Shown: positions 45,335-55,611 of the stretch, one piece after another
How the letters are laid out: every line of letters starts with the position of its first letter
How positions within the stretch are numbered: position 1 is the first letter of the stretch
Source: Shigella phage Sf18
Sequence record: MF158044
Length of the DNA: 64,000 bases
Direction: 5' to 3' (one strand)
The notes under the pieces: model-generated
Databases searched by the model: none
What the model was told of the DNA's origin: nothing
The model's input: only the letters and a program-made list of their open reading frames with translations
Position numbers and translations under genes: made by a program

Positions 45335-45527
45335 TTTCTGCACTAAGTGTTCTGTTGAGATGTTTGGAAAAGACACAGGGGACTTAAAAGGCCTCTTTAC
45401 AAAAGCAGAGTTTGAAGCTGGTTCAGCAATGCCAGTAATCTGTGAAGGTTGTGGTGCTTTATGGGTAGACCATGAAGGTAACCGAGTTAAACCATCTGAA
45501 GATAACGAACGTTGGGAGCATTACTAA
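45327..45527 (+). CDS. small zinc-ribbon protein
   Basis: 66 aa with CxxC...CxxC (CTKCS...CEGCG). Confidence 0.35.
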   Translation: MADFCTKCSVEMFGKDTGDLKGLFTKAEFEAGSAMPVICEGCGALWVDHEGNRVKPSEDNERWEHY

Positions 45528-45528
45528 T

Positions 45529-46323
45529 ATGGGTATCGTAAAAATTATTAAAGGTGATATCTTTAAAGACTTTGATGGTAAGAAATTTGATATCATTGGT
45601 CACGGTTGTAACTGCATGAACTTGATGGGTGCAGGTATTGCAGCAACAATTGCTAAACGCTACCCAAAAGCTTATGAAACTGACGCTGAAGTTTATGCTA
45701 CAGTAGGTGGTGAAAATCATAACCCTAAGCATCTAATGCTTGGTAACATCTCTGTAGCACGTTTTAAGCAGGGTCGAATTGCTAACCTTTACACTCAGGT
45801 TATCACTGGCAAAGATGCACGATACAACGCCTTAGAAGCAGCTTTACAGCGTCTTAACAACTACTGTAAAGTTAATCAACTTAAGAAAGTTGGGCTTCCG
45901 ATGATTGGTGCAGGGATTGGTGGTCTTGATAGCATGGCTGTACTGTCCATTATCAACCAGACTATGAAGGATGTTGACGTTTATATGTATGTCTATGAAG
46001 ATAAGATGTACAGTCAGTTGACTAGTCCTGTTACTGGTTGGGAGAACTTCAGTGAGCCTCAATACTTTGATGGTGTTGCTGTGGTAGGCAAGGATAAAGT
46101 TACCCTCAAGGTGAAGCGTAATGGCAAGGTACACACCAGTTACCCTCCGGTTGAGAAGTACAATCGAAGTAACGCTCAAGTTACCCACCCGTTACAAGGT
46201 CACCACCACAGAGCGGTAACGTTTAGCGATGATGCAAGTGTATATATCAATGCGACTACAGAAGAGTTTGCAGAAGATTATATCACACATGAAAACGTAA
46301 ACTATGTTGAAGCACGTAACTAA
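45529..46323 (+). CDS. macro-domain protein (ADP-ribose binding/hydrolase family)
   Basis: Start at Met (MGIVKIIKGDIF); macro signatures GDIF, DIIGHGCNCMNLMGAGIAATI, VGLPMIGAGIGGL; C-terminal 120 aa unassigned. Confidence 0.55.
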   Translation: MGIVKIIKGDIFKDFDGKKFDIIGHGCNCMNLMGAGIAATIAKRYPKAYETDAEVYATVGGENHNPKHLMLGNISVARFKQGRIANLYTQVITGKDARYNALEAALQRLNNYCKVNQLKKVGLPMIGAGIGGLDSMAVLSIINQTMKDVDVYMYVYEDKMYSQLTSPVTGWENFSEPQYFDGVAVVGKDKVTLKVKRNGKVHTSYPPVEKYNRSNAQVTHPLQGHHHRAVTFSDDASVYINATTEEFAEDYITHENVNYVEARN

Positions 46324-46391
46324 TAAGTTACCCAGATAAACATAGACAAGCCCTCCAAAGTTTGAGTTTAAAATCTCAGGTAAGGGGGGCT

Positions 46392-46576
46392 TTTTCATTT
46401 TAAATTTGTGCAGGTATAGTTGCATAGAACTCTGGACAGATTTCTTTAGCTGAACTCCAAAGGGAAAATTCATTTCAAATTTGTGCAGGTTTAGACTCCA
46501 AAGGGATTTTTCATTTTCAATCTGTGCAGATGCAGTTGGACTCCAAAGGGAAAATTCATTTTCAGTTTGTGCAGGT
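46392..46576. repeat. tandem array of four ~42-bp repeats with TTTGTGCAGGT core
   Basis: Units (CTCCAAAGGG)(A/T)TTCATTT(Y)MARTYTGTGCAGRT at about 46392, 46466, 46507, 46552; followed by C-rich tract 46596-46630; related motif upstream of SLT-like gene at 42203-42230. Confidence 0.55.
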
Positions 46577-46749: not shown

Positions 46750-46778
46750 TTGACTTCATAAATCCAGTCTTATAGTAT
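46750..46778 (+). promoter_or_regulatory. type-B early promoter (first of array)
   Basis: TTGACT, spacer, TATAGTAT, then ATTTGCATCAACGGGAAACATCCC and conserved leader AACAATCCTAAACTGGAG. Confidence 0.4.
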
Positions 46779-46827
46779 TTGCATCAACGGGAAACATCCC
46801 AACAATCCTAAACTGGAGAATCTAAAA

Positions 46828-47034
46828 ATGTTATATCAACGTGAGTTAATGATTGTTGACAACAACAAAACAAATAAACGTCGTTTCTATATGCTAATTT
46901 GTGATGTTTGGCAACGTATCTCAGAAAAGGATTTTGATGAATATGTTGATACGTCAATCAGGTCTGATTGTTATTTGACAACTCACACAAGGCATTACAC
47001 AAGGCATACAGCCATTTATTACTATAACGTTTAA
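46828..47034 (+). CDS. small hypothetical protein (array gene 1)
   Basis: 68 aa; preceded by conserved leader CCTAAACTGGAGAATCTAAAAATG. Confidence 0.45.
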   Translation: MLYQRELMIVDNNKTNKRRFYMLICDVWQRISEKDFDEYVDTSIRSDCYLTTHTRHYTRHTAIYYYNV

Positions 47035-47045
47035 AAGGCTTGACA

Positions 47046-47204
47046 ATGGTTAAAGAAAACGATGTAATACAATACAAAGATTTAGACGGATACCCAAAAA
47101 TTGGTAAAGTCTTCTATCTCTATAAGTCTGCTATGGGTAATGATTGTATAGCCCTTACAAATGGCGACAAAATAACCATGAAAGATTTTATAAAAATTAA
47201 TTAA
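47046..47204 (+). CDS. small hypothetical protein (below track cut-off)
   Basis: 52-aa ORF found by eye; stop TAA fused to the type-A cassette; weak SD. Confidence 0.25.
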   Translation: MVKENDVIQYKDLDGYPKIGKVFYLYKSAMGNDCIALTNGDKITMKDFIKIN

Positions 47205-47293
47205 ATAAAGTGCTTTACATGGGGTTTAAAAGCTAGTATCTTAAGCCCCCAGATAAAGAGCTTTACCAACAATCCTAAACTGGAGAATCTAAA
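47205..47293 (+). promoter_or_regulatory. type-A cassette copy 1
   Basis: TTTACA-N17-TATCTT promoter-like hexamers embedded in 9-bp hairpin GGGGTTTAA/TTAAGCCCC, then CCCCAGATAAAGAGCTTTACCAACAATCCTAAACTGGAGAATCTAAAATG. Confidence 0.5.
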
Positions 47294-47674
47294 ATGAAAT
47301 ATCGTGCGCCTAAATTTATCAACAAAGAAAACTTTCGTAGTATCTTAGAGGAAACTATGAAAGAAAACTTCAAAGGAAAAATAATTGTTGTTCACGCTTA
47401 CAATTTTAAGTATGATGTTAATGGTAACCGTATTAACCACTACAAAGCTACTATGCTTGACGGTACATTATCCGGTGAAAAAGCTATCATAAATGCTATT
47501 GCAGGACGTGGTAAAACTGTGATACGCTGTGAAAAAAGACGCTATCAAGGCGGTAAATATGGGTATGAAGATGCAATGTACCATCTTGATAAAATGGGGT
47601 ATGATGTAGAGAAAGCTGGAGTATCTCAAACTATTGGTAGTGACGGCTACGTTACAGTTTTCAAAATTAACTAA
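47294..47674 (+). CDS. small hypothetical protein (array gene)
   Basis: 126 aa; conserved cassette leader and SD. Confidence 0.5.
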   Translation: MKYRAPKFINKENFRSILEETMKENFKGKIIVVHAYNFKYDVNGNRINHYKATMLDGTLSGEKAIINAIAGRGKTVIRCEKRRYQGGKYGYEDAMYHLDKMGYDVEKAGVSQTIGSDGYVTVFKIN

Positions 47675-47765
47675 ATAAAGTCCTTTACATGGGGTTTATA
47701 GTTAGATAAGATAAGCCCCAGATAAAGAGCTTTACCAAACAATAACCTAAACTGGAGTATCAAAA
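47675..47765 (+). promoter_or_regulatory. type-A cassette copy 2
   Basis: TTTACA-N17-TAAGAT with hairpin GGGGTTTAT/ATAAGCCCC; leader variant CCTAAACTGGAGTATCAAAAATG. Confidence 0.5.
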
Positions 47766-48023
47766 ATGGCTACTATCAAAAACATCATTGTATCTGCAAA
47801 ATCTCGTGATGACGCTCGCGCAACTGCTAAAAAACTAAATGGTAAAGTGGTTGACAACGGAAAAGAATCTGCTGTAAGATGGGGCGTAAAATGTGATAAG
47901 GAAATTACTTTAAAACGTAGTTCCTATGACCTTTTCAAAGGTGTAAAAGCAATCGGTAGAACTAACGTCTACACGAAGAAAGGTTATAAAATGCACTTAT
48001 CATTAACTGACAATTTAATCTGA
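47766..48023 (+). CDS. small hypothetical protein (array gene)
   Basis: 85 aa, basic; cassette leader. Confidence 0.5.
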   Translation: MATIKNIIVSAKSRDDARATAKKLNGKVVDNGKESAVRWGVKCDKEITLKRSSYDLFKGVKAIGRTNVYTKKGYKMHLSLTDNLI

Positions 48024-48114
48024 TAAAGTGCTTTACATGGGGTTTATAGTTAGATAATATAAGCCCCAGATAAAGAGCTTTACTAACCAATAGTCCTAAA
48101 CTGGAGAATCTAAA
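48024..48114 (+). promoter_or_regulatory. type-A cassette copy 3
   Basis: TTTACA-N17-TAATAT with hairpin; conserved leader. Confidence 0.5.
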
Positions 48115-48627
48115 ATGAATTTTGTTGAAGCTACCTTTGAAGTCCAAAAAGAAAAATTCACTATCATCTATGAAGCTGTTAATATTTGTGAAGCATCCCA
48201 TTGTGTGGAGAATTGGAAGTTTACCGATGAGCACAAAGGCGGGGTTACAATCAAACTTAAAAATCCAGAGCGTAACGGGTACAAATATGCAATTCCACAG
48301 CATTACAGCCTTTCACAATTGATGAGTGATTATGCTAAACAAGGCCGCGAAAATCCATCTATAGAGGCTTACAAGAGCTTACAAGATGAATTACAAAGAG
48401 ATTTAGAGGCTAACAGCTACGTGCTATTTGCAAAGGTAGAAGATAAAGAAGGTAATACAGTATTAAATAGCTTTTCTCTTGCTTATGGCTTCGATTGGTG
48501 CTATCTTGACGGGGAAGATTTAGATTCACGATTAGAAGAGGAAGTGTCGAACTCCGATGGAGAATCTGAAGTAATGGAACGTTTAGAAGCCTTGAAAGAT
48601 TCTGTTATGAATATCTTTAATATCTAA
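48115..48627 (+). CDS. hypothetical acidic protein (array gene)
   Basis: 170 aa; cassette leader; acidic C-terminal third. Confidence 0.5.
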   Translation: MNFVEATFEVQKEKFTIIYEAVNICEASHCVENWKFTDEHKGGVTIKLKNPERNGYKYAIPQHYSLSQLMSDYAKQGRENPSIEAYKSLQDELQRDLEANSYVLFAKVEDKEGNTVLNSFSLAYGFDWCYLDGEDLDSRLEEEVSNSDGESEVMERLEALKDSVMNIFNI

Positions 48628-48711
48628 AAGTGCTTTACATGGGGTTATCAAGTTGATAAGATAGCCCCAGATAAAGAGCTTTACAAACAATCCTAAACTG
48701 GAGAATCTAAA
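48628..48711 (+). promoter_or_regulatory. type-A cassette copy 4
   Basis: Hairpin variant GGGGTTATC/GATAGCCCC (compensatory change keeps pairing); TTTACA-N17-TAAGAT. Confidence 0.5.
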
Positions 48712-49008
48712 ATGTTTATTGCCGCAAACGTTAGAACTAAATTAAGCCAGCTATTAAGTAATATCCAATTCATTGAATCTATGCGCCGTACATCTGAAGC
48801 CGTAGAGTGGTATCATGGAAAGATTAACAAAAAGGAAGTAATAATTTGTGTATGGAACTTTTGTAAAGAATACAAAAAACCATTGCTTCAGGTTGATATC
48901 TATGATAACACTAATAAGTCATCGATTAAGACCACTAGAGATATGGTTGATTCATATGAAATTAGTCACACTGGTAAACTATTCCACAAAGGTAAAAACA
49001 AATGTTAA
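48712..49008 (+). CDS. small hypothetical protein (array gene)
   Basis: 98 aa; cassette leader; stop overlaps next start (ATGTTAA). Confidence 0.5.
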   Translation: MFIAANVRTKLSQLLSNIQFIESMRRTSEAVEWYHGKINKKEVIICVWNFCKEYKKPLLQVDIYDNTNKSSIKTTRDMVDSYEISHTGKLFHKGKNKC

Positions 49009-49349
49009 TCACATACGTTGCAATTTTTATCTCTATTGTGGCGCTCTATAAAGCCTTACAAGCGCACAGTATAGCTAATAAGGCACTTACAAGGGATTTA
49101 AAAATAAACCTTGTACGGGGCTTTCTAGAGCGTTTAAGCTTAGAACAATTGAAACGCTTAGAGATGAGCTTTCGATTCAAAGCAGAAACATACCGGATTG
49201 ATAACATCCTAGACGGGGATTTTAAATTAATCAGTGATTATGACATACTTCTTGAGTCAATTCAAGATATAAACCTGAAAGATTATTATATCGTGATAGC
49301 GCAAGAAATTAATAAAAAAGAGCTTGCAATGCAGAATCAAAACAAGTAA
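49002..49349 (+). CDS. small membrane protein (array gene)
   Basis: 115 aa; N-terminal TM (ITYVAIFISIVALY); last 11 codons (KKELAMQNQNK) lie inside a type-B promoter and are shared with ORF 52598-52738. Confidence 0.45.
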   Translation: MLITYVAIFISIVALYKALQAHSIANKALTRDLKINLVRGFLERLSLEQLKRLEMSFRFKAETYRIDNILDGDFKLISDYDILLESIQDINLKDYYIVIAQEINKKELAMQNQNK

Positions 49350-49352
49350 AGT
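49324..49352 (+). promoter_or_regulatory. type-B promoter overlapping gene 3' end
   Basis: TTGCAA-N17-TAAAGT; the TAA of the -10 hexamer is the stop codon of ORF 49002-49349. Confidence 0.45.
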
Positions 49353-49629
49353 ATTCATCAACGGTACTAATGACGGTCGAACTTTGAACGTAACTTTAAA
49401 ACACTATATAGACGGTGTATTAAACTTTGAAGAGTTAAGAGCAGAACAGCACCTATTAGATTGGCAAGTAGCAGGTTTACAAAAAACCGCCACAGGATAT
49501 GGAAAGAAAATTCCTACATCTTGGAAAGTTCGATACCTTGGAAAGTTACGCAGAATTTATCAAGATGTTTACAGTAATAGCGGCGTAAGTTACATTATTG
49601 TTAGTGGTAAAAAATTGTATTTAGTCTAA
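49324..49629 (+). pseudogene. ORF without canonical start or leader (possible 5'-truncated gene)
   Basis: 101-aa frame open only from TTG at 49324; no in-frame ATG and no CTAAACTGGAG leader; begins inside the type-B promoter; ends at a normal type-A cassette. Confidence 0.25.
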
Positions 49630-49718
49630 TAAATTGCTTTACATGGGGTTATCAAGTTGCTAAGATAGCCCCAGATAAAGAGATTTATCTAAAACTAACC
49701 TAAACTGGAGACTAGAAA
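49630..49718 (+). promoter_or_regulatory. type-A cassette copy 5
   Basis: Hairpin variant GGGGTTATC/GATAGCCCC; leader variant ACCTAAACTGGAGACTAGAAAATG. Confidence 0.5.
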
Positions 49719-50126
49719 ATGACTAATGTTAATCACAAAGAAGTTGCAATTTTGAAAGCACGTTTGACCATTAACCGCATCAACATTGTAACATCAGCAG
49801 CACCAGACGAAACACTACATAATATCATCGGTAAAATTCAGGGCGCAGTAGTAGACACAAAACAGCTTAAAGAATCCTTGCAAGATGTAGCAGCAGGAGC
49901 TATAATTGACGGTGCTCAATATGAGATGAAGGAAATGCTGTCAAAGTCAAAAGTAATGAATAAAGAACTTGACTTGAAAATGTTTAGATTTGCTGTTAAA
50001 GTGTGGCTATGTGTTGATTTTGATGCAAACTTTGCAATTGCTGATTTCTTTGCAACATGGTTACAGCGTAACTTACCGGTTGAAGTTTTCCGTGAAATCT
50101 GCGATGCAATTTATTCAGAAATTTGA
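49719..50126 (+). CDS. hypothetical protein (array gene)
   Basis: 135 aa; cassette leader. Confidence 0.5.
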   Translation: MTNVNHKEVAILKARLTINRINIVTSAAPDETLHNIIGKIQGAVVDTKQLKESLQDVAAGAIIDGAQYEMKEMLSKSKVMNKELDLKMFRFAVKVWLCVDFDANFAIADFFATWLQRNLPVEVFREICDAIYSEI

Positions 50127-50155
50127 TTGACACTGCAAAAGCATAGTAGTAAAGT
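50127..50155 (+). promoter_or_regulatory. type-B early promoter
   Basis: TTGACA-N17-TAAAGT starting on the base after the upstream stop codon; followed by conserved leader. Confidence 0.5.
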
Positions 50156-50198
50156 ACTCATCAGACAACGAAACAACCCTAAACTGGAGATTCAAAAG

Positions 50199-50447
50199 AT
50201 GAAAACAAAAACACAACTCAAAAGTATGATGAAAAATGGTTTTCTCGATGATGTATACAAAGAATGTAGACGGTATGGGGAAATAAAAAGTAATTTCGAT
50301 TTTGAGTACACGTATACAGTGAATTTCAAAACTAACGAACGAAAAACAGACCTTGTAACTGAGATTCAAATAGAATACAAAGATTTATTATGGACTTTTG
50401 AACTTGTAAAAGGTTTATGCACATCGGCAGGTTATAAAAACATCTAA
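50199..50447 (+). CDS. small hypothetical protein (array gene)
   Basis: Start at internal Met (MKTKTQLK) after CTGGAGATTCAAAAG; the track N-terminal extension would translate the promoter. Confidence 0.45.
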   Translation: MKTKTQLKSMMKNGFLDDVYKECRRYGEIKSNFDFEYTYTVNFKTNERKTDLVTEIQIEYKDLLWTFELVKGLCTSAGYKNI

Positions 50448-50532
50448 AAGTGCTTTACATGGGGTTTATAGTTAGATAAGATAAGCCCCAGATAAAGAGC
50501 TTTACCAACAATCCTAAACTGGAGAATCTAAA
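50448..50532 (+). promoter_or_regulatory. type-A cassette copy 6
   Basis: Consensus copy: TAAAAGTGCTTTACATGGGGTTTATAGTTAGATAAGATAAGCCCCAGATAAAGAGCTTTACCAACAATCCTAAACTGGAGAATCTAAAATG. Confidence 0.5.
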
Positions 50533-51090
50533 ATGAAATGCTTTCATGGTACTACACAAGAAAACTTTGTAAACCTTATCAATGGCGGTGATAAACCATC
50601 AGGAGCTTGGAATTGCTCTGATATGGATGGATGTTTTTACGTCTACCCTGTTAACAAGTTCTATGATGTAGAGAATCTGGATGACGAACAAATCACAGAT
50701 GAAGGTATTAGAAACGCGCTTGATAGCGCAAGCATTACAGCAGCCTATCAAATGAAGTCACAAAAGCTTGTTATCTTGGAACTGGATATTCCAGAAGATG
50801 ATTTACAAGATGACTGGAGCTGTGAGAACATGAGCGACGTAGCAAGCTTTACAGAATATTTCGATAAAGAATGGATTAAAAAGGTTTACACAACTGAATT
50901 TAATGCTATGTATGCGCCTTTCTTTGTCCCTAACCTAAACAATAGAAATTTAGGATATGTACCAGACGAACTACGCAACATTGCAGAAATAGTCCAACGT
51001 AGTGATGGGATGAGCAATGTATATTGTGATATCTTTGACACCATGCAATGCAACGTAACAGAAACGGTTATAAACGACTTAACAGCATAA
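50533..51090 (+). CDS. hypothetical protein with ADP-ribosyltransferase-like N-terminal motif (tentative)
   Basis: 185 aa; N-terminal CFHGTTQENFVNLI resembles the HG[ST]...N..I signature of H-Y-E class ART folds (PARP/Tpt1-like), followed by Tyr cluster FYVYPVNKFY; cassette leader. Confidence 0.3.
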   Translation: MKCFHGTTQENFVNLINGGDKPSGAWNCSDMDGCFYVYPVNKFYDVENLDDEQITDEGIRNALDSASITAAYQMKSQKLVILELDIPEDDLQDDWSCENMSDVASFTEYFDKEWIKKVYTTEFNAMYAPFFVPNLNNRNLGYVPDELRNIAEIVQRSDGMSNVYCDIFDTMQCNVTETVINDLTA

Positions 51091-51153
51091 ACCATAGAAT
51101 CACACCAGTTCACTAGAAAAGCCCCGCACAGGGGCTTACAAGAGGCTTAAAAC

Positions 51154-51384
51154 ATGCTTACTACAATCTATCTTATTCTATCTATCTGCAATGGTTCACA
51201 GTGTGACTTTAAAGGTTTAGAAGAGTTTACAGGTAGCGAAAATAATGCTATTGTTGCCTGTCAGATAGCAAGGCAAGACTACCCAACATCGGATGATATC
51301 CAATGTTACTATAAGTCAGAAGATGATGAAGGTATTTACTTTGATAGTGTGAATGGTGAATATGAGATTCTTATAGAAAAGTAG
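51154..51384 (+). CDS. small hypothetical protein (array gene)
   Basis: 76 aa; SD CAAGAGG; preceded by GCCCC-GCACA-GGGGC hairpin. Confidence 0.4.
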   Translation: MLTTIYLILSICNGSQCDFKGLEEFTGSENNAIVACQIARQDYPTSDDIQCYYKSEDDEGIYFDSVNGEYEILIEK

Positions 51385-51413
51385 TTGACACTGAAAACGC
51401 AAGAAAGTAAAGT
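51385..51413 (+). promoter_or_regulatory. type-B early promoter
   Basis: TTGACA-N17-TAAAGT immediately after upstream stop; then ATTCATCAACGGGAAACATCCC and leader. Confidence 0.5.
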
Positions 51414-51462
51414 ATTCATCAACGGGAAACATCCCAACAATCCTAAACTGGAGATTCAAAAA

Positions 51463-51684
51463 ATGTTGCAAGTTCTTAACGTAAAAACCATTGATTTTAA
51501 ATTCTCAAATGTTCGTCGTACCTATTTACAGCCGTTTAGTAAACCTGTTAGGATTCCCAACGATGACGCTAAAAAGTTGATTGATGAAATTCTAGCTAAT
51601 GGCGGTTATCTGGCTAGTCATAAGCAGTATAATGATGAGGATGGAAGCCTGATAAATGAGTTTACATATTATTACTACAAATAA
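51463..51684 (+). CDS. small hypothetical protein (array gene)
   Basis: Start at internal Met (MLQVLNVK) after CTGGAGATTCAAAAA. Confidence 0.45.
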   Translation: MLQVLNVKTIDFKFSNVRRTYLQPFSKPVRIPNDDAKKLIDEILANGGYLASHKQYNDEDGSLINEFTYYYYK

Positions 51685-51775
51685 CTAATAAAGTGCTTTA
51701 CATGGGGTTTATAGTTAGCTAAGATAAGCCCCAGATAAAGAGCTTTACCAACAATCCTAAACTGGAGAATCTAGA
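51685..51775 (+). promoter_or_regulatory. type-A cassette copy 7
   Basis: TTTACA-N17-TAAGAT with hairpin; leader CTGGAGAATCTAGAATG. Confidence 0.5.
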
Positions 51776-51973
51776 ATGTTATCACTGATGCAAAAACTTT
51801 CTACCTTGTGGTGTTTAAAAGGTGTAGAGTGTAACCTTAACATGGAAGGTTCAAAGATAGACCTAAAAATAGTATACAATGGAGAAATACTATTCTCACA
51901 GAATAGCAGTCATCCACACTTCAAAGATAATGCAATTATGGCCGTGAATAATCTGATGGATAGAATTTATTAA
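51776..51973 (+). CDS. small hypothetical protein (array gene)
   Basis: 65 aa; cassette leader. Confidence 0.45.
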   Translation: MLSLMQKLSTLWCLKGVECNLNMEGSKIDLKIVYNGEILFSQNSSHPHFKDNAIMAVNNLMDRIY

Positions 51974-52058
51974 AGTGCTTTACATGGGGTTTAAAAGCTA
52001 GTATCTTAAGCCCCAGAGAAAGAGCTTTACCAACAATCCTAAACTGGAGAATCTGAAA
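51974..52058 (+). promoter_or_regulatory. type-A cassette copy 8
   Basis: Hairpin variant GGGGTTTAA/TTAAGCCCC; -10-like TATCTT. Confidence 0.5.
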
Positions 52059-52400
52059 ATGGCCTATGTAACAATTATCACCGATAAAGAAAATTCGTCA
52101 TGGTCTACCCAAGTTAACGACAAAATGAAACCTATGCAGTGTCTCAAGTACTTTGAGCAATGGAACAGGGGAGAAGATGTAAGCCCCTTTCAAGTGATGC
52201 AGATTGTACATGTTGACAATGAAGGGAATAAAACTACCCTTAACACTGAATACTATGCTACACGTTTCGAAACTCGCAAATCAGCTATGCAGGAGTTAAG
52301 AGAAAAGGGATATAGTCACATTGCCGCGCTCATTTGGTCTGATTTGCTTAAAAAACAGTCATTAACCTATGTTAAGCCAGAAAAAATCTTTATAAGCTAA
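52059..52400 (+). CDS. hypothetical protein (array gene)
   Basis: 113 aa; cassette leader. Confidence 0.5.
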   Translation: MAYVTIITDKENSSWSTQVNDKMKPMQCLKYFEQWNRGEDVSPFQVMQIVHVDNEGNKTTLNTEYYATRFETRKSAMQELREKGYSHIAALIWSDLLKKQSLTYVKPEKIFIS

Positions 52401-52597
52401 TCAACAACTTATAAAAAATCTTTTGAAAAACTATTGACAATGCCCCTTGACAAGTGTAACTTTGTTCGAGGGGGTTTATCTAAAAGGGGTTAACTTAATA
52501 GATTCTTTATAGATAAGCGTAAAAAGTACTTGCAAAGGTCTAATCATATCTATATAGTATCTTCAAAAGGCAACTTCCTAAACTGGAGAATCACTAA
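52401..52597 (+). promoter_or_regulatory. intergenic control region with stacked promoter-like boxes
   Basis: TTGACAATGCCCCTTGACAAG (two -35-like boxes) and TTGCAA-spacer-TATATAGTA, then leader CCTAAACTGGAGAATCACTAAATG. Confidence 0.35.
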
Positions 52598-52738
52598 ATG
52601 TTAGATATCATTAAAAACCCTATCCTTTGCGGTATGATTGTTTCTGTTGTGTTGCCATTAGCAATGCTCATCATTGGTGAAATCTCAGATAAACTTTTTG
52701 ATAAAAAACTACTTGCAATGCAGAATCAAAACAAGTAA
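52598..52738 (+). CDS. small membrane protein (below track cut-off)
   Basis: 46-aa ORF found by eye; TM core (ILCGMIVSVVLPLAMLIIG); conserved leader; C-terminal KKLLAMQNQNK encoded by the type-B promoter sequence. Confidence 0.4.
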   Translation: MLDIIKNPILCGMIVSVVLPLAMLIIGEISDKLFDKKLLAMQNQNK

Positions 52739-52741
52739 AGT
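52713..52741 (+). promoter_or_regulatory. type-B promoter overlapping gene 3' end
   Basis: TTGCAA-N17-TAAAGT; identical over about 45 nt to 49324-49362; followed by hairpin GGGGAGG-GAGA-CCTCCCC and leader. Confidence 0.45.
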
Positions 52742-52802
52742 ATTCATCAACGGGGAGGGAGACCTCCCCACTAAACAAAATTCCTAAACTGGAGAATCTA
52801 GA

Positions 52803-53330
52803 ATGAATAAGTTTAATGCTGTTAATGCAATCCGTAGCCGTGAAGTGATGAGCAAGCCTTGTAAAGATACTTGGGAATTTACCTTAAAGAGCAAAGTTTT
52901 TGCAGTTATCACAAAAGGGGAAGATAAGCAGTTTTATGTACACCGACCAAATGTAAAAGCGGTAACAGCCAACAACTTTATGGGGGCTATTTCTCTTATT
53001 CTGAATGATTATATGGCTATAGTCGCAGAAATTCACGAAATGGCTATTAAGGCAACTAAAAACGAGTTAAACCGCTTTAAAATGGCTTATGAGCGCTCTA
53101 TTAAGTCCCATAATCTTTTTATTGCAATCCACTATACAGGCATGTATGCTATGGGAACGGGTAACCAACAATACCCACTCTATGAAGTGGAAAACATCTT
53201 TACAAGTGACTACCCAACAACTAATTTTAAAATTACGTTAGGGGAAGCATTAAATAGGGGAATTAGGCTTTACGAACAATCTTTAAAAAACTTAGAAAAT
53301 TCCCTTGACGAAATCATCACAAATCTATAA
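52803..53330 (+). CDS. hypothetical protein (array gene)
   Basis: 175 aa; cassette leader. Confidence 0.5.
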   Translation: MNKFNAVNAIRSREVMSKPCKDTWEFTLKSKVFAVITKGEDKQFYVHRPNVKAVTANNFMGAISLILNDYMAIVAEIHEMAIKATKNELNRFKMAYERSIKSHNLFIAIHYTGMYAMGTGNQQYPLYEVENIFTSDYPTTNFKITLGEALNRGIRLYEQSLKNLENSLDEIITNL

Positions 53331-53333
53331 AGT
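53305..53333 (+). promoter_or_regulatory. type-B early promoter
   Basis: TTGACG-N17-TAAAGT, with TAA as the upstream gene's stop; then CTTATCAACGGGGAGGGAATGACCTTCCCC hairpin and leader. Confidence 0.45.
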
Positions 53334-53390
53334 ACTTATCAACGGGGAGGGAATGACCTTCCCCAACAATCCTAAACTGGAGACTAGAAA

Positions 53391-53654
53391 ATGAATAATC
53401 AAGAAATCACTATCCTGTTACAAATCGGTACTGACAAAGAAGATATCCAACTTTGCAAACGTATTGAAAGTGATTGGTTCAACGGTGAAATCATCGCAGA
53501 ATCTTATGAAGTAGTCGGATTCATGAATGGTGAAATTGTAAGCCATTTCGGTTTAACTAAATCTGAAGCCGTTGCAAAGTATGACGTTTTATCTTGTGAG
53601 ATTCTTACAAAATACAATGAAAAAAGACTTGCAACTTATGCAGCAATGAATTAA
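53391..53654 (+). CDS. small hypothetical protein (array gene)
   Basis: 87 aa; leader CCTAAACTGGAGACTAGAAAATG. Confidence 0.5.
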   Translation: MNNQEITILLQIGTDKEDIQLCKRIESDWFNGEIIAESYEVVGFMNGEIVSHFGLTKSEAVAKYDVLSCEILTKYNEKRLATYAAMN

Positions 53655-53657
53655 TAT
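53629..53657 (+). promoter_or_regulatory. type-B early promoter
   Basis: TTGCAA-N17-TAATAT, with TAA as the upstream stop; then TTTCAACGGGGAGGGAGACTTCCCC hairpin and leader. Confidence 0.45.
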
Positions 53658-53719
53658 TACTTTCAACGGGGAGGGAGACTTCCCCACTAACCTAAATTCC
53701 TAAACTGGAGAATCTGAAA

Positions 53720-53971
53720 ATGGCTACTATCCACGCAACTGTTAACAATTTTGGCTTCCATGTATTAGATGTTAAATTTGATATGGTTGGAACTGGCGAT
53801 GTTTTTGGCATGGTTGATATGTGTCTAAAAGCAACTATTCAGGACTACAATCAATCTGAGTGGTTCTGGAAAGAAGTAAAACAAGAAGTCTTAAAGGATG
53901 GCAAATCCTCTTACTATTGGGGTGATTCTCTTATCACGCTTTACTATGAAGTTGACGGCTTCAATAACTAA
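53720..53971 (+). CDS. small hypothetical protein (last array gene)
   Basis: 83 aa; cassette leader. Confidence 0.5.
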   Translation: MATIHATVNNFGFHVLDVKFDMVGTGDVFGMVDMCLKATIQDYNQSEWFWKEVKQEVLKDGKSSYYWGDSLITLYYEVDGFNN

Positions 53972-54012: not shown

Positions 54013-54035
54013 AGCCCCTTAGATGGGGCTTTTTT
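54013..54035 (+). terminator. intrinsic terminator closing the rightward unit
   Basis: AGCCCC-TTAGAT-GGGGCT hairpin followed by TTTTT; a second hairpin CGGGGC-AAATA-GCCCC sits just upstream. Confidence 0.55.
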
Positions 54036-55581
54036 ACGTCTTCCTAGAATCTTACCATTGATTCGATAGAATCTATCCCATACATTTAGAATAATAACTC
54101 TATAGCTTACTCTATATCCTCTTATCAAATCAACTTAAATATAAGCCCATAACCCGAAAGGGAAGGGCAATCCCTAAAACGCTCTATAACGCTCTATACG
54201 GGCTTATCATCTCATCTTAAGCAATCATATTAACCTGCTCTTAAAAGCCCTTTATAGAGCTTTCTAGAGCCTTAAAAGAATCTTATAAGGGTATAAGCTT
54301 TATTATCTCGTTAGTATCTTGTGAATGGTTAAACAGGGGCTTGATAATAGCTTTAAAGTATGTTATGGAGTCTTCAAAGTAACGTAAAAGAACCTTAAAA
54401 GTAACGTAAAAGTTAGCCCCCTTTACATTCTCTTAACAAAATCTTAACAAATGCTACATAGTTATGCTTGTTAGCCCCTTGTTAAATCCTTGTTAGAGGT
54501 ATGTTAAGAGCTTGTTAGCCTCTTTGAAGTCCCTGTATAAGCCCCTAGAAAGCCCTATAAAGAGCTATACAGGTAGTTGGGGTGTAGTTACTAGGGAGAA
54601 CCTTAGAAGAGGCTATATAGAGCTATACAGAGCTTTTAAGAGGGCTTTATAGAGAATCACTAAGAAGGGAAGGGAACTATAGACCAAGAGATAGTGACCA
54701 TGTTAATAGCTTGTTAAAAAGGTTTAGAACTTGTTAGCACCTTGTTAATTATCTTAACAAAATAACTCTTAAGATTTAACTATTTAGCAACTTATAAGCA
54801 ACTTGTTAGACCCTTGTTAGTAGTGTTACAGACTGGTTAAGCTCTTGTTAGTTCTGTTAAGAGGCTGTTAAGAACTTTGAAGAGATGTTAAGAGCTTGAG
54901 AGAGTTGTTAAGAGATTGTTAATGATATTTTAAGATTTTGCAAAGGGGATGTTACAGGGCTGTTTAGGGCTACCAAGCAGATATACACCCTAAGTAGATA
55001 TTTTTCAGATTCTCCAAAGACCCTAAAAAGTAACCTACCTAGTCTATTTTATAAAAATTTTATAATTCTGAATAACTATCTATACACTATCTTATATAAA
55101 ACAGGAATTAACAGGCTTATAAGATACCTTGTTAGTACCGTGTTAGACCTTGTAGGATAAGCCTAAGAGGTTGATTCTTAAGAACAACCGAATCAACTAG
55201 AAGGGAATACCTGTTTAGTGTTATATAACAGTCTATATAGAGGCTTAGTAATACCTAGTGATTCTGCTATATAGGGTACTATCGTTTACCTAGAGATTAA
55301 GATGGCTATAGGGGCTTCTAAGGGGCTAGGAAGAGGTTAGGAAGGTGATTGTATAGGGTTGATTAATGGTAGGCTTAGAAGGCTTTATAGAGGGCTATAT
55401 AGAGAGCACTATTTAGGGACTAAGAGGTTATATAGATACTATATAATACTATATAGAGATGATGCTTAGAGAGGGTGTTTAGAAGGGTATAGATATTTTA
55501 TCACATATCATGGTGACCCAAGATGAACGGAGTGAATCCCAAATTTTATAAAAATTATAAATTTCGTAAATTTTACTCAAT
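54036..55581. repeat. ORF-free repeat-dense region (candidate origin, packaging or terminus region)
   Basis: No ORF of 60 aa or more on either strand across about 1.6 kb; dense short degenerate repeats (CTTGTTAG, GTTAAGAG, TATAGAGC, TTAGAAGG, AGTAACGTAAAAG x2) and AT-rich palindromes ATTTTATAAAAAT. Confidence 0.6.
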
Positions 55582-55602
55582 AAAAAGCCCCAATTAAGGG
55601 GC
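55582..55602 (-). terminator. intrinsic terminator closing the leftward unit
   Basis: On - strand GCCCC-TTAATT-GGGGC hairpin followed by TTTTT, directly after the stop of the 55612 gene. Confidence 0.5.
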
Positions 55603-55611
55603 TGTATAGTT

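What the first reader, a model, noticed from the sequence alone, without database searches (positions are those of the whole stretch)
46828..53971. Array of about 19 small early-type genes punctuated by a conserved hairpin promoter cassette (type A, 8 copies)
Eight intergenic gaps carry near-identical 85-91-bp cassettes: upstream stop codon, then GTGCTTTACA, a 9-bp-stem hairpin, CCCCAGATAAAGAGCTTTACCAACAATCCTAAACTGGAGAATCTAAA, then ATG. TTTACA and a TAAGAT/TAATAT/TATCTT hexamer are always 17 nt apart (sigma70-like geometry), with the hairpin spanning spacer and -10. The stem occurs as three variants (GGGGTTTAT/ATAAGCCCC, GGGGTTTAA/TTAAGCCCC, GGGGTTATC/GATAGCCCC) whose differences are compensatory, which argues the structure itself is selected. 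The arrangement resembles the promoter-early stem-loop (PeSL) cassettes described for T4-type phages, which are thought to mediate modular gene shuffling. The small ORFs are unassigned and are candidates for host-takeover or anti-defence functions.
Basis: partly seen in the sequence, partly recalled or inferred. Interest (0 to 1): 0.7.

Follow-up and report, generated by a model that had tools for sequence, protein, structure and literature searches.

The report
Repeated promoter-hairpin cassettes between phage genes
Eight near-identical 90-bp spacers between small early genes of a Felix O1-type phage each combine a bacterial-type promoter with a conserved RNA stem-loop. They also mark the exact points where related phages have gained, lost, duplicated or swapped genes, a T4-style "PeSL" arrangement seen here in a different phage subfamily.

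Summary
Eight + strand cassettes lie at 47206-52061, with none expected by chance and no further copy in the 64 kb. All have TTTACA-N17-TAnnnT and a 9-bp GGGG…CCCC hairpin. The window is an Ounavirinae (Felix O1-like, Mooglevirus) phage about 97% identical to Shigella phage Sf13.

The cassette occurs in 287 phage records, all of Ounavirinae genome size.

- **Hairpin:** across 67 unique hairpins the stem is kept by compensatory changes at four positions. G·T outnumbers A·C 49 to 1, so the sense strand folds.
- **New here:** the hairpin is the tip of a roughly 21-bp three-helix structure. It holds the -35 in its 5' strand and the predicted start site in its 3' strand, so it can form only in read-through RNA.
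- **Promoter reading:** supported by invariant T1/A2/T6, a spacer held at 17±1, and early RT-PCR signals for Felix O1 ORF16 and ORF20.
- **Recombination:** all ten indel, duplication and replacement events against Sf13, Sf17, Michonne and Moogle join inside cassette repeats.

It meets every sequence-level PeSL criterion. Promoter and terminator activity are untested, and it lacks a U-tract. The 19 ORFs match only PHROGs of unknown function.

Verdict: a real new member of a known kind, of moderate interest.

The parts
47206..47296 (+). Type A cassette 1, upstream of the 126-aa ORF. -35 at 47214-47219, -10 TATCTT at 47237-47242, three-helix structure 47206-47265, SD at 47282, ATG at 47294. Predicted start is the A at 47251.
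   Evidence: RNA fold -21.8 kcal/mol, z -2.5; 81.4 bits
47676..47768 (+). Type A cassette 2, upstream of the 85-aa ORF. -35 at 47684-47689, -10 TAAGAT at 47707-47712, stem arms 47691-47699 and 47711-47719, structure 47676-47734, ATG at 47766.
   Evidence: z -3.9; 89 bits
48024..48117 (+). Type A cassette 3, upstream of the 170-aa ORF. -35 at 48032-48037, -10 TAATAT at 48055-48060, structure 48024-48082, ATG at 48115.
   Evidence: (z -4.3)
48626..48714 (+). Type A cassette 4, upstream of the 98-aa ORF, of the GGGGTTATC/GATAGCCCC class. -35 at 48634-48639, -10 TAAGAT at 48657-48662, structure 48626-48683, ATG at 48712.
   Evidence: (z -4.2)
49630..49721 (+). Type A cassette 5, upstream of the 135-aa ORF. 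Its outer helix carries the compensated variant TAAATT/GATTTA. -35 at 49638-49643, -10 at 49661-49666, ATG at 49719.
50446..50535 (+). Type A cassette 6, upstream of the 185-aa ORF. -35 at 50454-50459, -10 at 50477-50482, ATG at 50533. Its 5' edge is the right breakpoint of the gene replacement relative to Sf13.
51689..51778 (+). Type A cassette 7, upstream of the 65-aa ORF. -35 at 51697-51702, -10 at 51720-51725, ATG at 51776.
51971..52061 (+). Type A cassette 8, upstream of the 113-aa ORF. -35 at 51979-51984, -10 TATCTT at 52002-52007, ATG at 52059.
46750..46830 (+). Type B cassette: TTGACT-N17-TAGTAT, then TTGCATCAACGG, a 5'-UTR hairpin GGGAAACATCCC, the shared RBS block and ATG at 46828. 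It is the first promoter of the array.
49324..49365 (+). Type B promoter TTGCAA-N17-TAAAGT-ATTCATCAACGG. Its downstream hairpin, SD and ATG (about 55 bp) are deleted in this genome relative to Sf13, Michonne and Felix O1.
50127..50201 (+). Type B promoter TTGACA-N17-TAAAGT plus the RBS block, with ATG at 50199. The left breakpoint of the replacement relative to Sf13 lies at 50163.
51385..51465 (+). Type B cassette TTGACA-N17-TAAAGT with hairpin GGGAAACATCCC and ATG at 51463.
52530..52600 (+). Promoter-like TTGCAA-N17-TATAGT plus the RBS block, with ATG at 52598.
52713..52805 (+). Type B cassette TTGCAA-N17-TAAAGT with 5'-UTR hairpin GGGGAGG/CCTCCCC and ATG at 52803.
53305..53393 (+). Type B cassette TTGACG-N17-TAAAGT with a hairpin and ATG at 53391.
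53629..53722 (+). Type B cassette TTGCAA-N17-TAATAT with a hairpin and ATG at 53720.
46828..47034 (+). ORF of 68 aa (phrog_5293, unknown function)
47046..47204 (+). ORF of 52 aa (phrog_14219). Absent from Sf17, Michonne, Silverhawkium and Felix O1.
47294..47674 (+). ORF of 126 aa (phrog_4495). Absent from Moogle and Felix O1.
47766..48023 (+). ORF of 85 aa (phrog_5089). Tandemly duplicated in Michonne; absent from Moogle and Felix O1.
48115..48627 (+). ORF of 170 aa (phrog_4190), the homologue of Felix O1 ORF16
48712..49008 (+). ORF of 98 aa (phrog_4401)
49002..49349 (+). ORF of 115 aa (phrog_4375)
49366..49629 (+). 5'-truncated remnant of the phrog_3436 gene (90 aa in relatives). It has lost its own SD and ATG.
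49719..50126 (+). ORF of 135 aa (phrog_4327), the homologue of Felix O1 ORF20
50199..50447 (+). ORF of 82 aa (phrog_23636). Sf13 and Michonne carry an unrelated 82-aa gene at this slot; Moogle, KMM4 and Felix O1 have none.
50533..51090 (+). ORF of 185 aa (phrog_3303)
51154..51384 (+). ORF of 76 aa (phrog_4640)
51463..51684 (+). ORF of 73 aa (phrog_10118). Presence varies among relatives.
51776..51973 (+). ORF of 65 aa (phrog_13570). Absent from Michonne and Moogle.
52059..52400 (+). ORF of 113 aa (phrog_4318)
52598..52738 (+). ORF of 46 aa (phrog_7482). Absent from Moogle.
52803..53330 (+). ORF of 175 aa (phrog_4725)
53391..53654 (+). ORF of 87 aa (phrog_7022)
53720..53971 (+). ORF of 83 aa (phrog_4559)
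54013..54036 (+). Canonical intrinsic terminator that closes the array (AGCCCCTTAGATGGGGCT followed by TTTTTT). It corresponds to Felix O1 t23.
   Evidence: PMC3185647 Table 2

Best explanation
The type A cassette is a dual-coded, portable expression signal of Felix O1-type phages (Ounavirinae). It is equivalent in function to the PeSL cassettes of T4-type phages.

At the DNA level it is a host sigma70 early promoter (TTTACA, 17 bp, TAnnnT, GC-rich discriminator). The predicted start is the A that follows CCCC. It drives a short unstructured leader, AGAUAAAGAGCUUUACC...CCUAAACUGGAG, and the downstream small gene.

At the RNA level, in transcripts that read through from upstream promoters, the same 58-60 nt fold into a three-helix stem-loop of about 21 bp (6 + 5 + 9-10 bp). 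It starts at the upstream stop codon. It holds the -35 in its 5' strand, the -10 in the loop and 3' arm, and the start site in its 3' strand. Self-initiated transcripts therefore lack it.

My committed reading is that this RNA structure marks the 3' boundary of upstream messages. It may act as a weak attenuator or insulator, or as a processing and 3'-protection hairpin. The helix length would also suit RNase III. I rate attenuator and processing roles about equally likely, and neither is shown.

The cassettes, and the RBS block they share with the type B promoters, are roughly 30-95-bp direct repeats spaced every 0.3-1.2 kb. Homologous recombination between them deletes, duplicates, inserts and swaps whole promoter-plus-gene modules without scars.

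Shown: the repeats, the conservation and covariation, the strand asymmetry and the breakpoints. Inferred: promoter activity, the start site, the fate of the RNA and the recombination mechanism.
For: - **Repeat reality and distribution:** establish the repeats. One search finds 287 phage records with 1489 places, all of Ounavirinae genome size and including 29 Erwinia phages.
- **Promoter, conservation:** the spacer is 17 nt in all 8 copies. Across 68 unique hairpin regions T1 and A2 are invariant and T6 is at least 90% conserved, while the -10 positions in between vary.
- **Promoter, geometry:** the shorter class loses a base after the -10, not in the spacer. The apical loop is held at 10-12 nt, which is what a 17±1 spacer requires.
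- **Promoter, expression:** in Felix O1, ORF16 and ORF20 lie directly downstream of the homologous 57-bp repeats. Both are in the 5-min class by RT-PCR, a class holding 21 of the 102 ORFs tested (PMC3185647).
- **Apical stem:** 61-67 of 67 are paired at positions 1-9, falling to 15 of 67 at position 10. Compensatory types are GC/TA at position 3, TA/AT at 7, AT/TA at 8 and AT/TA/TG/CG at 9. One search gives 0/500 shuffles reaching the observed pairing or covariation score.
- **Extended structure:** it is predicted for each of the 8 copies, with z from -2.5 to -4.3, and independently by RNAalifold. The outer helix pair is GC in 108, TA in 19 and mismatched in 10. The outermost pair is TA in 106 and AT in 4. 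Pairing collapses one step further out, to 27 of 139. On A3, 95.2% of cells are paired, against 58-59% when slid by 1, with 0/500 shuffles.
- **Sense-strand folding:** G.T cells number 49 against 1 A.C in the apical stem. The outer helix has U.G in 134 of 139.
- **Breakpoints:** there are ten events against Sf13, Sf17, Michonne and Moogle. HSP overlaps are 95-97 bp (a whole A cassette) or 27-34 bp (the RBS block). They include a tandem duplication of the 85-aa gene and a replacement bounded at 50163 and 50447 between genomes that are 97-99% identical.
- **Exchange between cassettes:** hairpin types differ at orthologous slots between phages that are 97% identical, and there are chimeric 5'/3' halves.
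Against: - No transcript 5' or 3' ends are available for any Ounavirinae phage in the searched literature.
- Each hexamer pair scores only 9 of 12. About 30 such sites are expected by chance in 8.5 kb, so the promoter call rests on conservation alone.
- TTTACA and TAAAG are mutually complementary. The conservation of either could therefore be caused by the other function.
- There is no U-tract after the structure, and the + strand terminator scan does not flag the cassettes. The phage does use a canonical terminator at 54013. Efficient termination, which is part of the PeSL definition, is therefore doubtful.
- Felix O1 ORF17 also follows an A cassette but peaked at 25 min.
- Covarying variants are inherited and spread by recombination, so independent compensatory events are fewer than the cell counts suggest. 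I estimate at least 5 stem haplotypes.
- Whole-gene indels must end in intergenic DNA, which here is almost entirely cassette. Co-location alone is therefore weak evidence. The scar-free overlaps and the chimeras are the stronger evidence.
Confidence: 0.7

Rival explanations
1. A purely RNA-level element with no promoter activity, such as an RNase III-type processing site or a 3'-end stabiliser of a polycistronic early transcript, as in T7 early mRNA. On this view the sigma70-like hexamers are by-products of the stem and loop sequence.
For: The three-helix structure of about 21 bp with internal loops has the size of RNase III substrates. The TTTACA is fully accounted for by pairing with TAAAG. 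Strong TTGACA-N17-TAAAGT type B promoters upstream could supply the transcripts. The individual hexamer scores are unremarkable.
Against: T1 and A2 of the hexamer are invariant inside an apical loop whose other positions vary. The loop is held at an unusually large 10-12 nt, matching a 17±1 spacer. When the hairpin register shifts by one, the -35/-10 distance is the thing that is preserved. Felix O1 ORF16 and ORF20 are in the earliest RT-PCR class.
Confidence: 0.1
2. An operator for a dimeric phage DNA-binding protein. The inverted repeat overlapping the spacer and -10 would be a repressor site that shuts off early transcription.
For: An inverted repeat overlapping the spacer and -10 is the classical operator geometry. 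Early promoters must be switched off later in infection.
Against: At least five different half-site sequences coexist, three of them within this one genome, and they change symmetrically so as to keep complementarity rather than sequence. Pairing is strand-asymmetric, with 49 G.T against 1 A.C, which means nothing for duplex recognition. Complementarity extends over about 60 nt, including the upstream stop codon.
Confidence: 0.05
3. A DNA-level hairpin, formed by single-stranded + strand DNA or as a cruciform, selected as a recombination or template-switching signal. The structure would exist to promote module shuffling, not to act in RNA.
For: All junctions lie in cassettes, and chimeric cassettes exist. 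G.T is also the least destabilising DNA mismatch. Arbiol 2010 mapped one mini-circle crossover to the PeSL loop.
Against: It needs second-order selection for evolvability. Many junctions lie in the unstructured RBS block, where simple homology suffices. A cruciform would carry A.C mismatches on the other strand. The element is always in the transcribed orientation and in register with the stop codon and the SD.
Confidence: 0.08
4. A selfish miniature repeat (REP- or MITE-like) that has spread through the intergenic gaps and has no regulatory role.
For: It is a multi-copy, palindromic, intergenic repeat, with about 5 copies per genome across 287 records.
Against: All copies share one orientation and lie within one 4.8-kb stretch, in exact register between a stop codon and an SD-ATG. 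There are no target duplications and no copies elsewhere in the 64 kb. The element is conserved from Escherichia phages to Erwinia phages with compensatory changes.
Confidence: 0.05

Closest known systems
PeSL (promoter-early stem-loop) cassettes of T4-type phages RB49/phi1, T4/PST and KVP40/nt-1 (Arbiol et al. 2010, PMC2839356; Comeau et al. 2014, PMC4122927)
   Same: Both have a sigma70-type early promoter with an N17 spacer; the T4/PST consensus TTTACW...TAYWAT is very close. Both have a stem-loop rich in GGGG...CCCC with G-T pairs that overlaps the spacer and -10, which is the commonest RB49/phi1 subclass. In both, the upstream stop codon sits in AT-rich sequence and an SD plus ATG sit at the 3' end. 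Both are clustered among small ORFans in a hyperplastic region, and indels and replacements between close relatives are bounded by the elements.
   Different: The host lineage differs (Ounavirinae, not T4-like), and there is no sequence similarity to T4-like phages in blastn. Here the hairpin is the tip of a longer three-helix structure of about 21 bp that includes the -35 and the start site. The sequence is far more uniform: one family across a whole subfamily. There is no U-tract, so terminator activity is doubtful. Promoter activity, terminator activity and mini-circle formation were shown experimentally for RB49/phi1 and are untested here.
The 57-bp and 39-bp direct repeats listed in the Felix O1 genome paper (Whichard et al. 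2010, PMC3185647, section 2.1)
   Same: The 57-bp repeat CTTTACATGGGGCTTAAAAGTCTGTAAAGTAAGCCCCAGATAAAGAGCTTTACCACT, found between genes 15/16 and 19/20, is the orthologous type A cassette. The 39-bp repeat TTGACACTGG...ACATCAAC is the type B promoter.
   Different: That paper reports them only as direct repeats. It notes no promoter, hairpin or recombination role, and its promoter list does not include them. Felix O1 has 3 A copies and about 10 genes in this region, against 8 copies and 19 genes here.
[quoted passage not shown] 2015, PMC4309531)
   Same: Both are multiple near-identical intergenic promoter repeats concentrated in a short presumed early region. Conservation extends beyond the hexamers, and each repeat family is clade-specific.
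   Different: The sequence differs (TTGACA-N17-TAgAAT). No stem-loop was described, and no breakpoint analysis was done.
RNase III processing hairpins between the early genes of phage T7 (established knowledge, not tested here)
   Same: Both are intergenic hairpins of about 60 nt with internal loops, lying between consecutive early genes of a co-oriented array. Both would leave a 3' hairpin on the upstream message.
   Different: T7 sites do not overlap promoters. No cleavage data exist here, no Rfam model exists, and nothing matched in Rfam.

Membership tests
PeSL cassette (Arbiol 2010 / Comeau 2014) | Sigma70-like -35 and -10 boxes with a spacing of about 17 bp | tested here: met
   TTTACA-N17-TAnnnT in 8 of 8 copies. 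The spacer is 17±1 and T1/A2/T6 are conserved across 139 unique relatives.
PeSL cassette (Arbiol 2010 / Comeau 2014) | A stable stem-loop adjacent to or overlapping the promoter, typically G-run/C-run with G-T pairs | tested here: met
   A 9-bp GGGG.../...CCCC stem with a T.G pair, overlapping the spacer and -10. Supported by covariation and by folding z-scores of -2.5 to -4.3.
PeSL cassette (Arbiol 2010 / Comeau 2014) | Upstream gene's stop codon in an AT-rich 5' part, with an SD and start codon at the 3' end | tested here: met
   The stop codon lies 0-4 nt before, or overlaps, the TAAAGT outer helix. GGAG lies 8-9 nt before the ATG in all 8 copies.
PeSL cassette (Arbiol 2010 / Comeau 2014) | Concentrated in hyperplastic regions of small genes of unknown function | tested here: met
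   All 8 copies lie within 4.8 kb among 19 ORFs that match only PHROGs of unknown function. Gene number in this region ranges from 10 to 21 among nine relatives.
PeSL cassette (Arbiol 2010 / Comeau 2014) | Indels and replacements between close relatives have their junctions in the cassettes | tested here: met
   Ten events against Sf13, Sf17, Michonne and Moogle. The overlaps equal a cassette (95-97 bp) or the shared RBS block (27-34 bp). Chimeric and swapped cassettes are also seen.
PeSL cassette (Arbiol 2010 / Comeau 2014) | Promoter activity in vivo | not testable with these tools
   The only indirect evidence is that Felix O1 ORF16 and ORF20 peak at 5 min by RT-PCR.
PeSL cassette (Arbiol 2010 / Comeau 2014) | The stem-loop acts as a transcription terminator or attenuator | tested here: inconclusive
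   No U-tract follows the structure, and the + strand terminator scan does not flag any cassette. Activity cannot be measured in silico.
PeSL cassette (Arbiol 2010 / Comeau 2014) | Formation of mini-circles by recombination between neighbouring cassettes | not testable with these tools
   This needs inverse PCR or long reads from infected cells.
Canonical intrinsic (rho-independent) terminator | A GC-rich hairpin followed immediately by a U-run | tested here: not met
   The sequence after the stem is AGAUAAAGAG, and after the full structure it is CCAACAAUCC. The array's real terminator at 54013-54036 does have T6.
RNase III processing site (T7 early type) | About two helical turns of mostly paired RNA with internal loops, cleaved by host RNase III | tested here: inconclusive
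   The length and shape fit, at 20-21 bp in three helices. Cleavage is not testable and there is no Rfam match.
Known RNA families (Rfam 15) | A match to any curated covariance model | tested here: not met
   There is no hit at the cassettes at E<=1. The only hit is a chance mir-287 match at 53434.

The most novel reading that the evidence does not exclude
The cassette is a self-insulating module in which one 60-nt sequence is read twice. As DNA it is an early promoter. As RNA it forms a two-turn hairpin, but only in transcripts that come from upstream, because the cassette's own start site lies inside the 3' strand. That hairpin would be a specific cleavage or termination signal, for example for host RNase III.

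The cell would then discriminate foreign read-through transcripts from self-initiated ones. Each ORFan would be expressed only from its own promoter. Any gene placed between two cassettes would become an autonomous, portable unit. This would be a general design principle linking gene regulation to modular evolvability across a whole phage subfamily.
Probability: 0.25. Interest if true: 0.7.

Novelty: new member of a known kind. Interest (0 to 1): 0.5.

Why it matters
PeSL cassettes have so far been described only in T4-type phages, and their role in modular shuffling rests on a few phage pairs. This element is a much cleaner instance. It is one sequence family, present in about 5 copies per genome in some 290 sequenced Ounavirinae phages that infect Escherichia, Salmonella, Shigella, Citrobacter and Erwinia. 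It has clear RNA-level covariation and scar-free cassette-to-cassette junctions between near-identical genomes.

Three practical consequences follow:

- It gives a tractable system in E. coli and Salmonella phages, which are used for typing, biocontrol and therapy. The system can test whether overlapping promoter and stem-loop signals insulate early genes and drive the turnover of accessory genes.
- It supplies precise predicted start sites and module boundaries for annotating the "hypothetical" early region.
- It explains why this region varies from 10 to 21 genes among relatives.

Tried and rejected
1. **Function of the ORFs.** Pfam gave nothing for all 19, apart from a sub-threshold Transposase_1 hit. 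PHROGs gave only families of unknown function.

2. **The 185-aa ORF as an ADP-ribosyltransferase.** I suspected an H-Y-E enzyme, because H5-G-T, Y36/Y38 and E83 are invariant in 19 homologues and a macro-domain gene lies upstream. PDB sequence search gave nothing. The AlphaFold model was poor, with pLDDT 66. Foldseek against the PDB gave no match below E=1. The idea is unsupported and was dropped.

3. **Rfam.** No family matches at the cassettes.

4. **Transcriptome or TSS data.** Literature searches for Felix O1-type phages found none. The PhageMaP Bas63 preprint gives no cassette-level information.

5. **Extra or degenerate A copies.** A covariance model with filters off found none in the window.

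6. **MAFFT register problem.** MAFFT keeps the -10 aligned and so puts the 45-nt class out of register for the inner stem pairs. The tool counts for those pairs are therefore diluted. I relied on a flank-anchored comparison instead.

7. **Homology to T4-like PeSLs.** blastn of the cassette hits only Ounavirinae-type genomes.

8. **A RegB-like target.** The T4 consensus GGAGRAYARAA (PMC3014915) can be compared with GGAGAAUCUAA here. The match is only partial and no RegB homologue was looked for. This remains speculation.

9. **One failed comparison.** In the alignment I gave wrong coordinates for Moogle, so that row is uninformative.

Full report
**What the window is.** The region 46000-54500 matches 247 phage records, all Felix O1-type myoviruses. 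The closest are Shigella phages Sf13, Sf15 and Sf17 at about 97% identity, followed by Citrobacter phages Michonne and Moogle at 85-91%. These belong to Ounavirinae, genus Mooglevirus. Sf13 is collinear with the window gene for gene. The array lies between a macro-domain gene (45472-46323, Pfam Macro) and a canonical terminator at 54013-54036. It corresponds to Felix O1 genes 14-23.

**Checking the observation.** The 21-nt core occurs 8 times on the + strand and 0 times in shuffles.
- A covariance model built from relatives and run without filters over all 64 kb finds exactly these eight copies (74-89 bits) and nothing else.
- The stop-to-ATG gaps are 84-91 bp.
- All copies carry TTTACA, a 17-nt spacer and TAAGAT, TAATAT or TATCTT.
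- Mean column identity among the eight is 83%.

The description is accurate apart from trivial variation in the GTGC block and one extra C in copy 1.

**Family-wide conservation.** A blastn search with one cassette finds 1489 places in 287 phage records. Essentially all are 84-90-kb Ounavirinae genomes from Escherichia, Salmonella, Shigella, Citrobacter and Erwinia. A pattern scan of IMG/VR, together with nine GenBank loci, gave 139 unique full elements and 67 unique hairpins.

The Felix O1 genome paper had already listed the orthologous sequence as a "57 bp direct repeat" between genes 15/16 and 19/20. It listed the companion type B promoter as a 39-bp repeat. Neither received any functional reading (PMC3185647).

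**The hairpin is selected, and on the sense strand.** I anchored the comparison on the flanks only: the 5' arm counted from TTTACA and the 3' arm counted back from AGATAAAG.
- Stem positions 1-9 are paired in 61-67 of 67 unique hairpins, and position 10 in only 15 of 67.
- Double changes keep pairing at four positions: position 3 (GC or TA), position 7 (TA or AT), position 8 (AT or TA) and position 9 (AT, TA, TG or CG).
- The tool count on a MAFFT alignment gives 94.8% paired against 90.1% in shuffles (0/500). Sliding the partners by one column gives 66-69%.
- G.T cells outnumber A.C cells 49 to 1.

That asymmetry has no meaning for duplex DNA or a symmetric protein site. It is what one expects if the + (mRNA-sense) strand folds.

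Folding each copy as RNA extends the hairpin by two further helices, CTTTA/TAAAG and TAAAGT/GCTTTA. The total is about 21 bp in three helices, with z-scores from -2.5 to -4.3. RNAalifold predicts the same architecture independently.
- The outer helix has a compensated pair: GC in 108, TA in 19 and mismatched in 10.
- Its outermost pair is TA in 106 and AT in the 4 Erwinia-type copies.
- It has a U.G in 134 of 139.
- Pairing collapses one step further out, to 27 of 139.
- On the 40-sequence alignment the full structure is 95.2% paired, against 58-59% when slid by one, with 0/500 shuffles reaching it.

The middle helix never varies, so it says nothing either way. The structure starts at or next to the upstream stop codon. 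It contains the -35 in its 5' strand and the -10 in the loop and 3' arm.

**Is it also a promoter?** Individually the hexamers score only 9 of 12, and such sites are common by chance. Four other arguments carry the case:
- T1 and A2 of the -10 are invariant and T6 is at least 90% conserved, while positions 3-5 vary. T1 and A2 sit in an apical loop whose other bases vary.
- The -35/-10 distance is 17 in nearly all copies and 18 in a few. When the hairpin register changes in the 45-nt class, the base is lost after the -10, not in the spacer.
- The apical loop is held at an oddly large 10-12 nt. That is exactly what a 9-nt arm plus a 17-nt spacer requires.
- In Felix O1, ORF16 and ORF20 are the genes just downstream of the 57-bp repeats. 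Both are in the earliest (5 min) RT-PCR class, which holds 21 of the 102 ORFs tested. ORF17, which also follows a cassette, peaked at 25 min.

The preferred start, a purine 7-8 nt after the hexamer and preceded by C, is the A after CCCC. This is inference. It places the start site inside the 3' strand of the structure, so only read-through RNA can fold.

**What the RNA structure does is not settled.** No U-tract follows it, and the scan does not call it a terminator, whereas the array ends in a textbook terminator. Its length would suit RNase III, and it could protect upstream 3' ends. Rfam has no match. I rate attenuation or insulation and processing or stabilisation about equally.

**A second cassette type and a shared RBS block.** Eight type B promoters are present (TTGACA or TTGCAA, N17, TAAAGT). 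Most are followed by TCATCAACGG and a GC hairpin in the 5' UTR. Types A and B end in the same block, CCTAAACTGGAG. AAACTGGAG occurs 15 times in 46.8-53.7 kb, once elsewhere in the window and never on the minus strand.

**Cassette-bounded rearrangements.** Gene families in this region number from 10 (Felix O1) to 21-22 (Michonne, Sf13). Nucleotide-level junctions against four close relatives are as follows:

| Event | Relative | Junction |
|---|---|---|
| Replacement of the 82-aa gene by an unrelated 82-aa gene | Sf13 (flanks 96.8% and 98.7% identical) | 50163, just after the type B -10/TCATCA, and 50447, the first base of the next A cassette |
| Tandem duplication of the 85-aa gene plus cassette | Michonne | Not measured as an overlap; also visible in its GenBank annotation |
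| Deletion of the 126-aa and 85-aa genes | Moogle | 97-bp overlap, one intact A cassette |
| Deletion of the 65-aa gene | Michonne | 95-bp overlap |
| Four further indels | Michonne and Moogle | 27-34-bp overlaps, all in the RBS block |
| 52-aa gene indel | Sf17 and Michonne | Flanked by AAAGGCTTGACA and AAAGTGCTTTACA |
| About 55-bp deletion inside a type B cassette | This genome | See |

Cassette variants also differ at orthologous slots between phages that are 97% identical. Ten elements are 5'/3' chimeras that break the outer helix pair.

One caveat applies. Viable whole-gene indels must end in intergenic DNA, which here is nearly all cassette. The scar-free overlaps, the duplication and the chimeras are therefore the informative evidence.

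**Comparison with known systems.** Arbiol et al. 2010 and Comeau et al. 2014 define PeSLs by a sigma70 early promoter plus a stem-loop. The stem-loop is often GGGG...CCCC with G-T pairs and most often lies between the boxes or overlaps the -10. The upstream stop codon sits in AT-rich sequence, an SD and ATG sit at the 3' end, and the elements lie in hyperplastic regions with indels bounded by them.

All sequence-level criteria are met here. Promoter activity, terminator activity and mini-circles could not be tested, and termination looks doubtful. The element shares no sequence with T4-like phages. In the searched library, PeSLs are discussed only for T4-type phages. A parallel exists in the 41-nt promoter repeats of PAK_P1-like phages.

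**The genes.** All 19 ORFs match PHROG families of unknown function, and none has a credible Pfam hit. My attempt to assign the 185-aa protein failed. "Unassigned" is confirmed. "Anti-defence" remains a guess.

**Verdict.** It is best filed as a new member of the PeSL kind in Ounavirinae. The added finding is that the promoter is embedded in a longer RNA structure that forms only in read-through transcripts. Interest is moderate.

Noticed in passing
window 54040-55610: About 1.57 kb has no ORF of 50 aa or more and is packed with short repeats of 10-11-bp period (CTTGTTAG, GCTCTATA/GCTATACAG, TGTTAAGAG and others). It lies between the array's terminator and the first minus-strand genes, and cumulative GC skew peaks near 56 kb. 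It may be an origin-like or iteron region.
   Followed up: partly
window 46454-46576: A 45-bp unit, ACTCCAAAGGGAAAATTCATTTTCAATTTGTGCAGGT, is repeated 2.9 times in tandem. It lies between the macro-domain gene's terminator-like hairpin (about 46350-46395) and the first promoter of the array. Sf13 annotates a minus-strand ORF over it.
   Followed up: no
window 49365: About 55 bp present in Sf13, Michonne and Felix O1 are missing here. The missing stretch holds the 5'-UTR hairpin, the SD and the ATG of the phrog_3436 gene. What remains is a promoter fused to a start-less ORF (49366-49629), so this is either a pseudogene or an assembly error.
   Followed up: partly
window 46810-53710 (and 31454): The translation-initiation block AAACTGGAG occurs 15 times in this 7-kb array, only once elsewhere in the 64 kb, and never on the minus strand. 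The whole leader, not just the promoter, is therefore array-specific. GGAGAAUCUAA partly resembles the T4 RegB cleavage consensus GGAGRAYARAA (PMC3014915).
   Followed up: partly
window 51091-51153 and 52401-52597: Two intergenic gaps carry different elements. The first has a hairpin GCCCCGCACAGGGGC followed by TTACAAGAGGCTTAAAAC-ATG, upstream of the 76-aa ORF. The second is a 197-bp gap with tandem TTGACA boxes and GGGGGTTTATCTAAAAGGGG, upstream of the 46-aa ORF.
   Followed up: no
window 50533-51090: The 185-aa protein has invariant H5-G-T, Y36/Y38 and E83 in 19 homologues, all from Ounavirinae-size contigs. That pattern is reminiscent of an H-Y-E ADP-ribosyltransferase, and a macro-domain gene lies 4 kb upstream. 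However, the model was poor (pLDDT 66) and no fold match was found.
   Followed up: yes
window 47035-47047: Directly after the 68-aa ORF's stop codon lies AAAAGGCTTGACA. It resembles the 5' end of an A cassette (AAAGTGCTTTACA) but has a consensus TTGACA. It abuts the 52-aa ORF, which is present or absent among relatives, and looks like a half-cassette left by an insertion.
   Followed up: partly
GU169904.1 (Staphylococcus phage SA1), one search hit H45: A 147-kb record labelled as a Staphylococcus phage carries six copies of this enterobacterial Ounavirinae cassette. This suggests a chimeric or contaminated database record.
   Followed up: no
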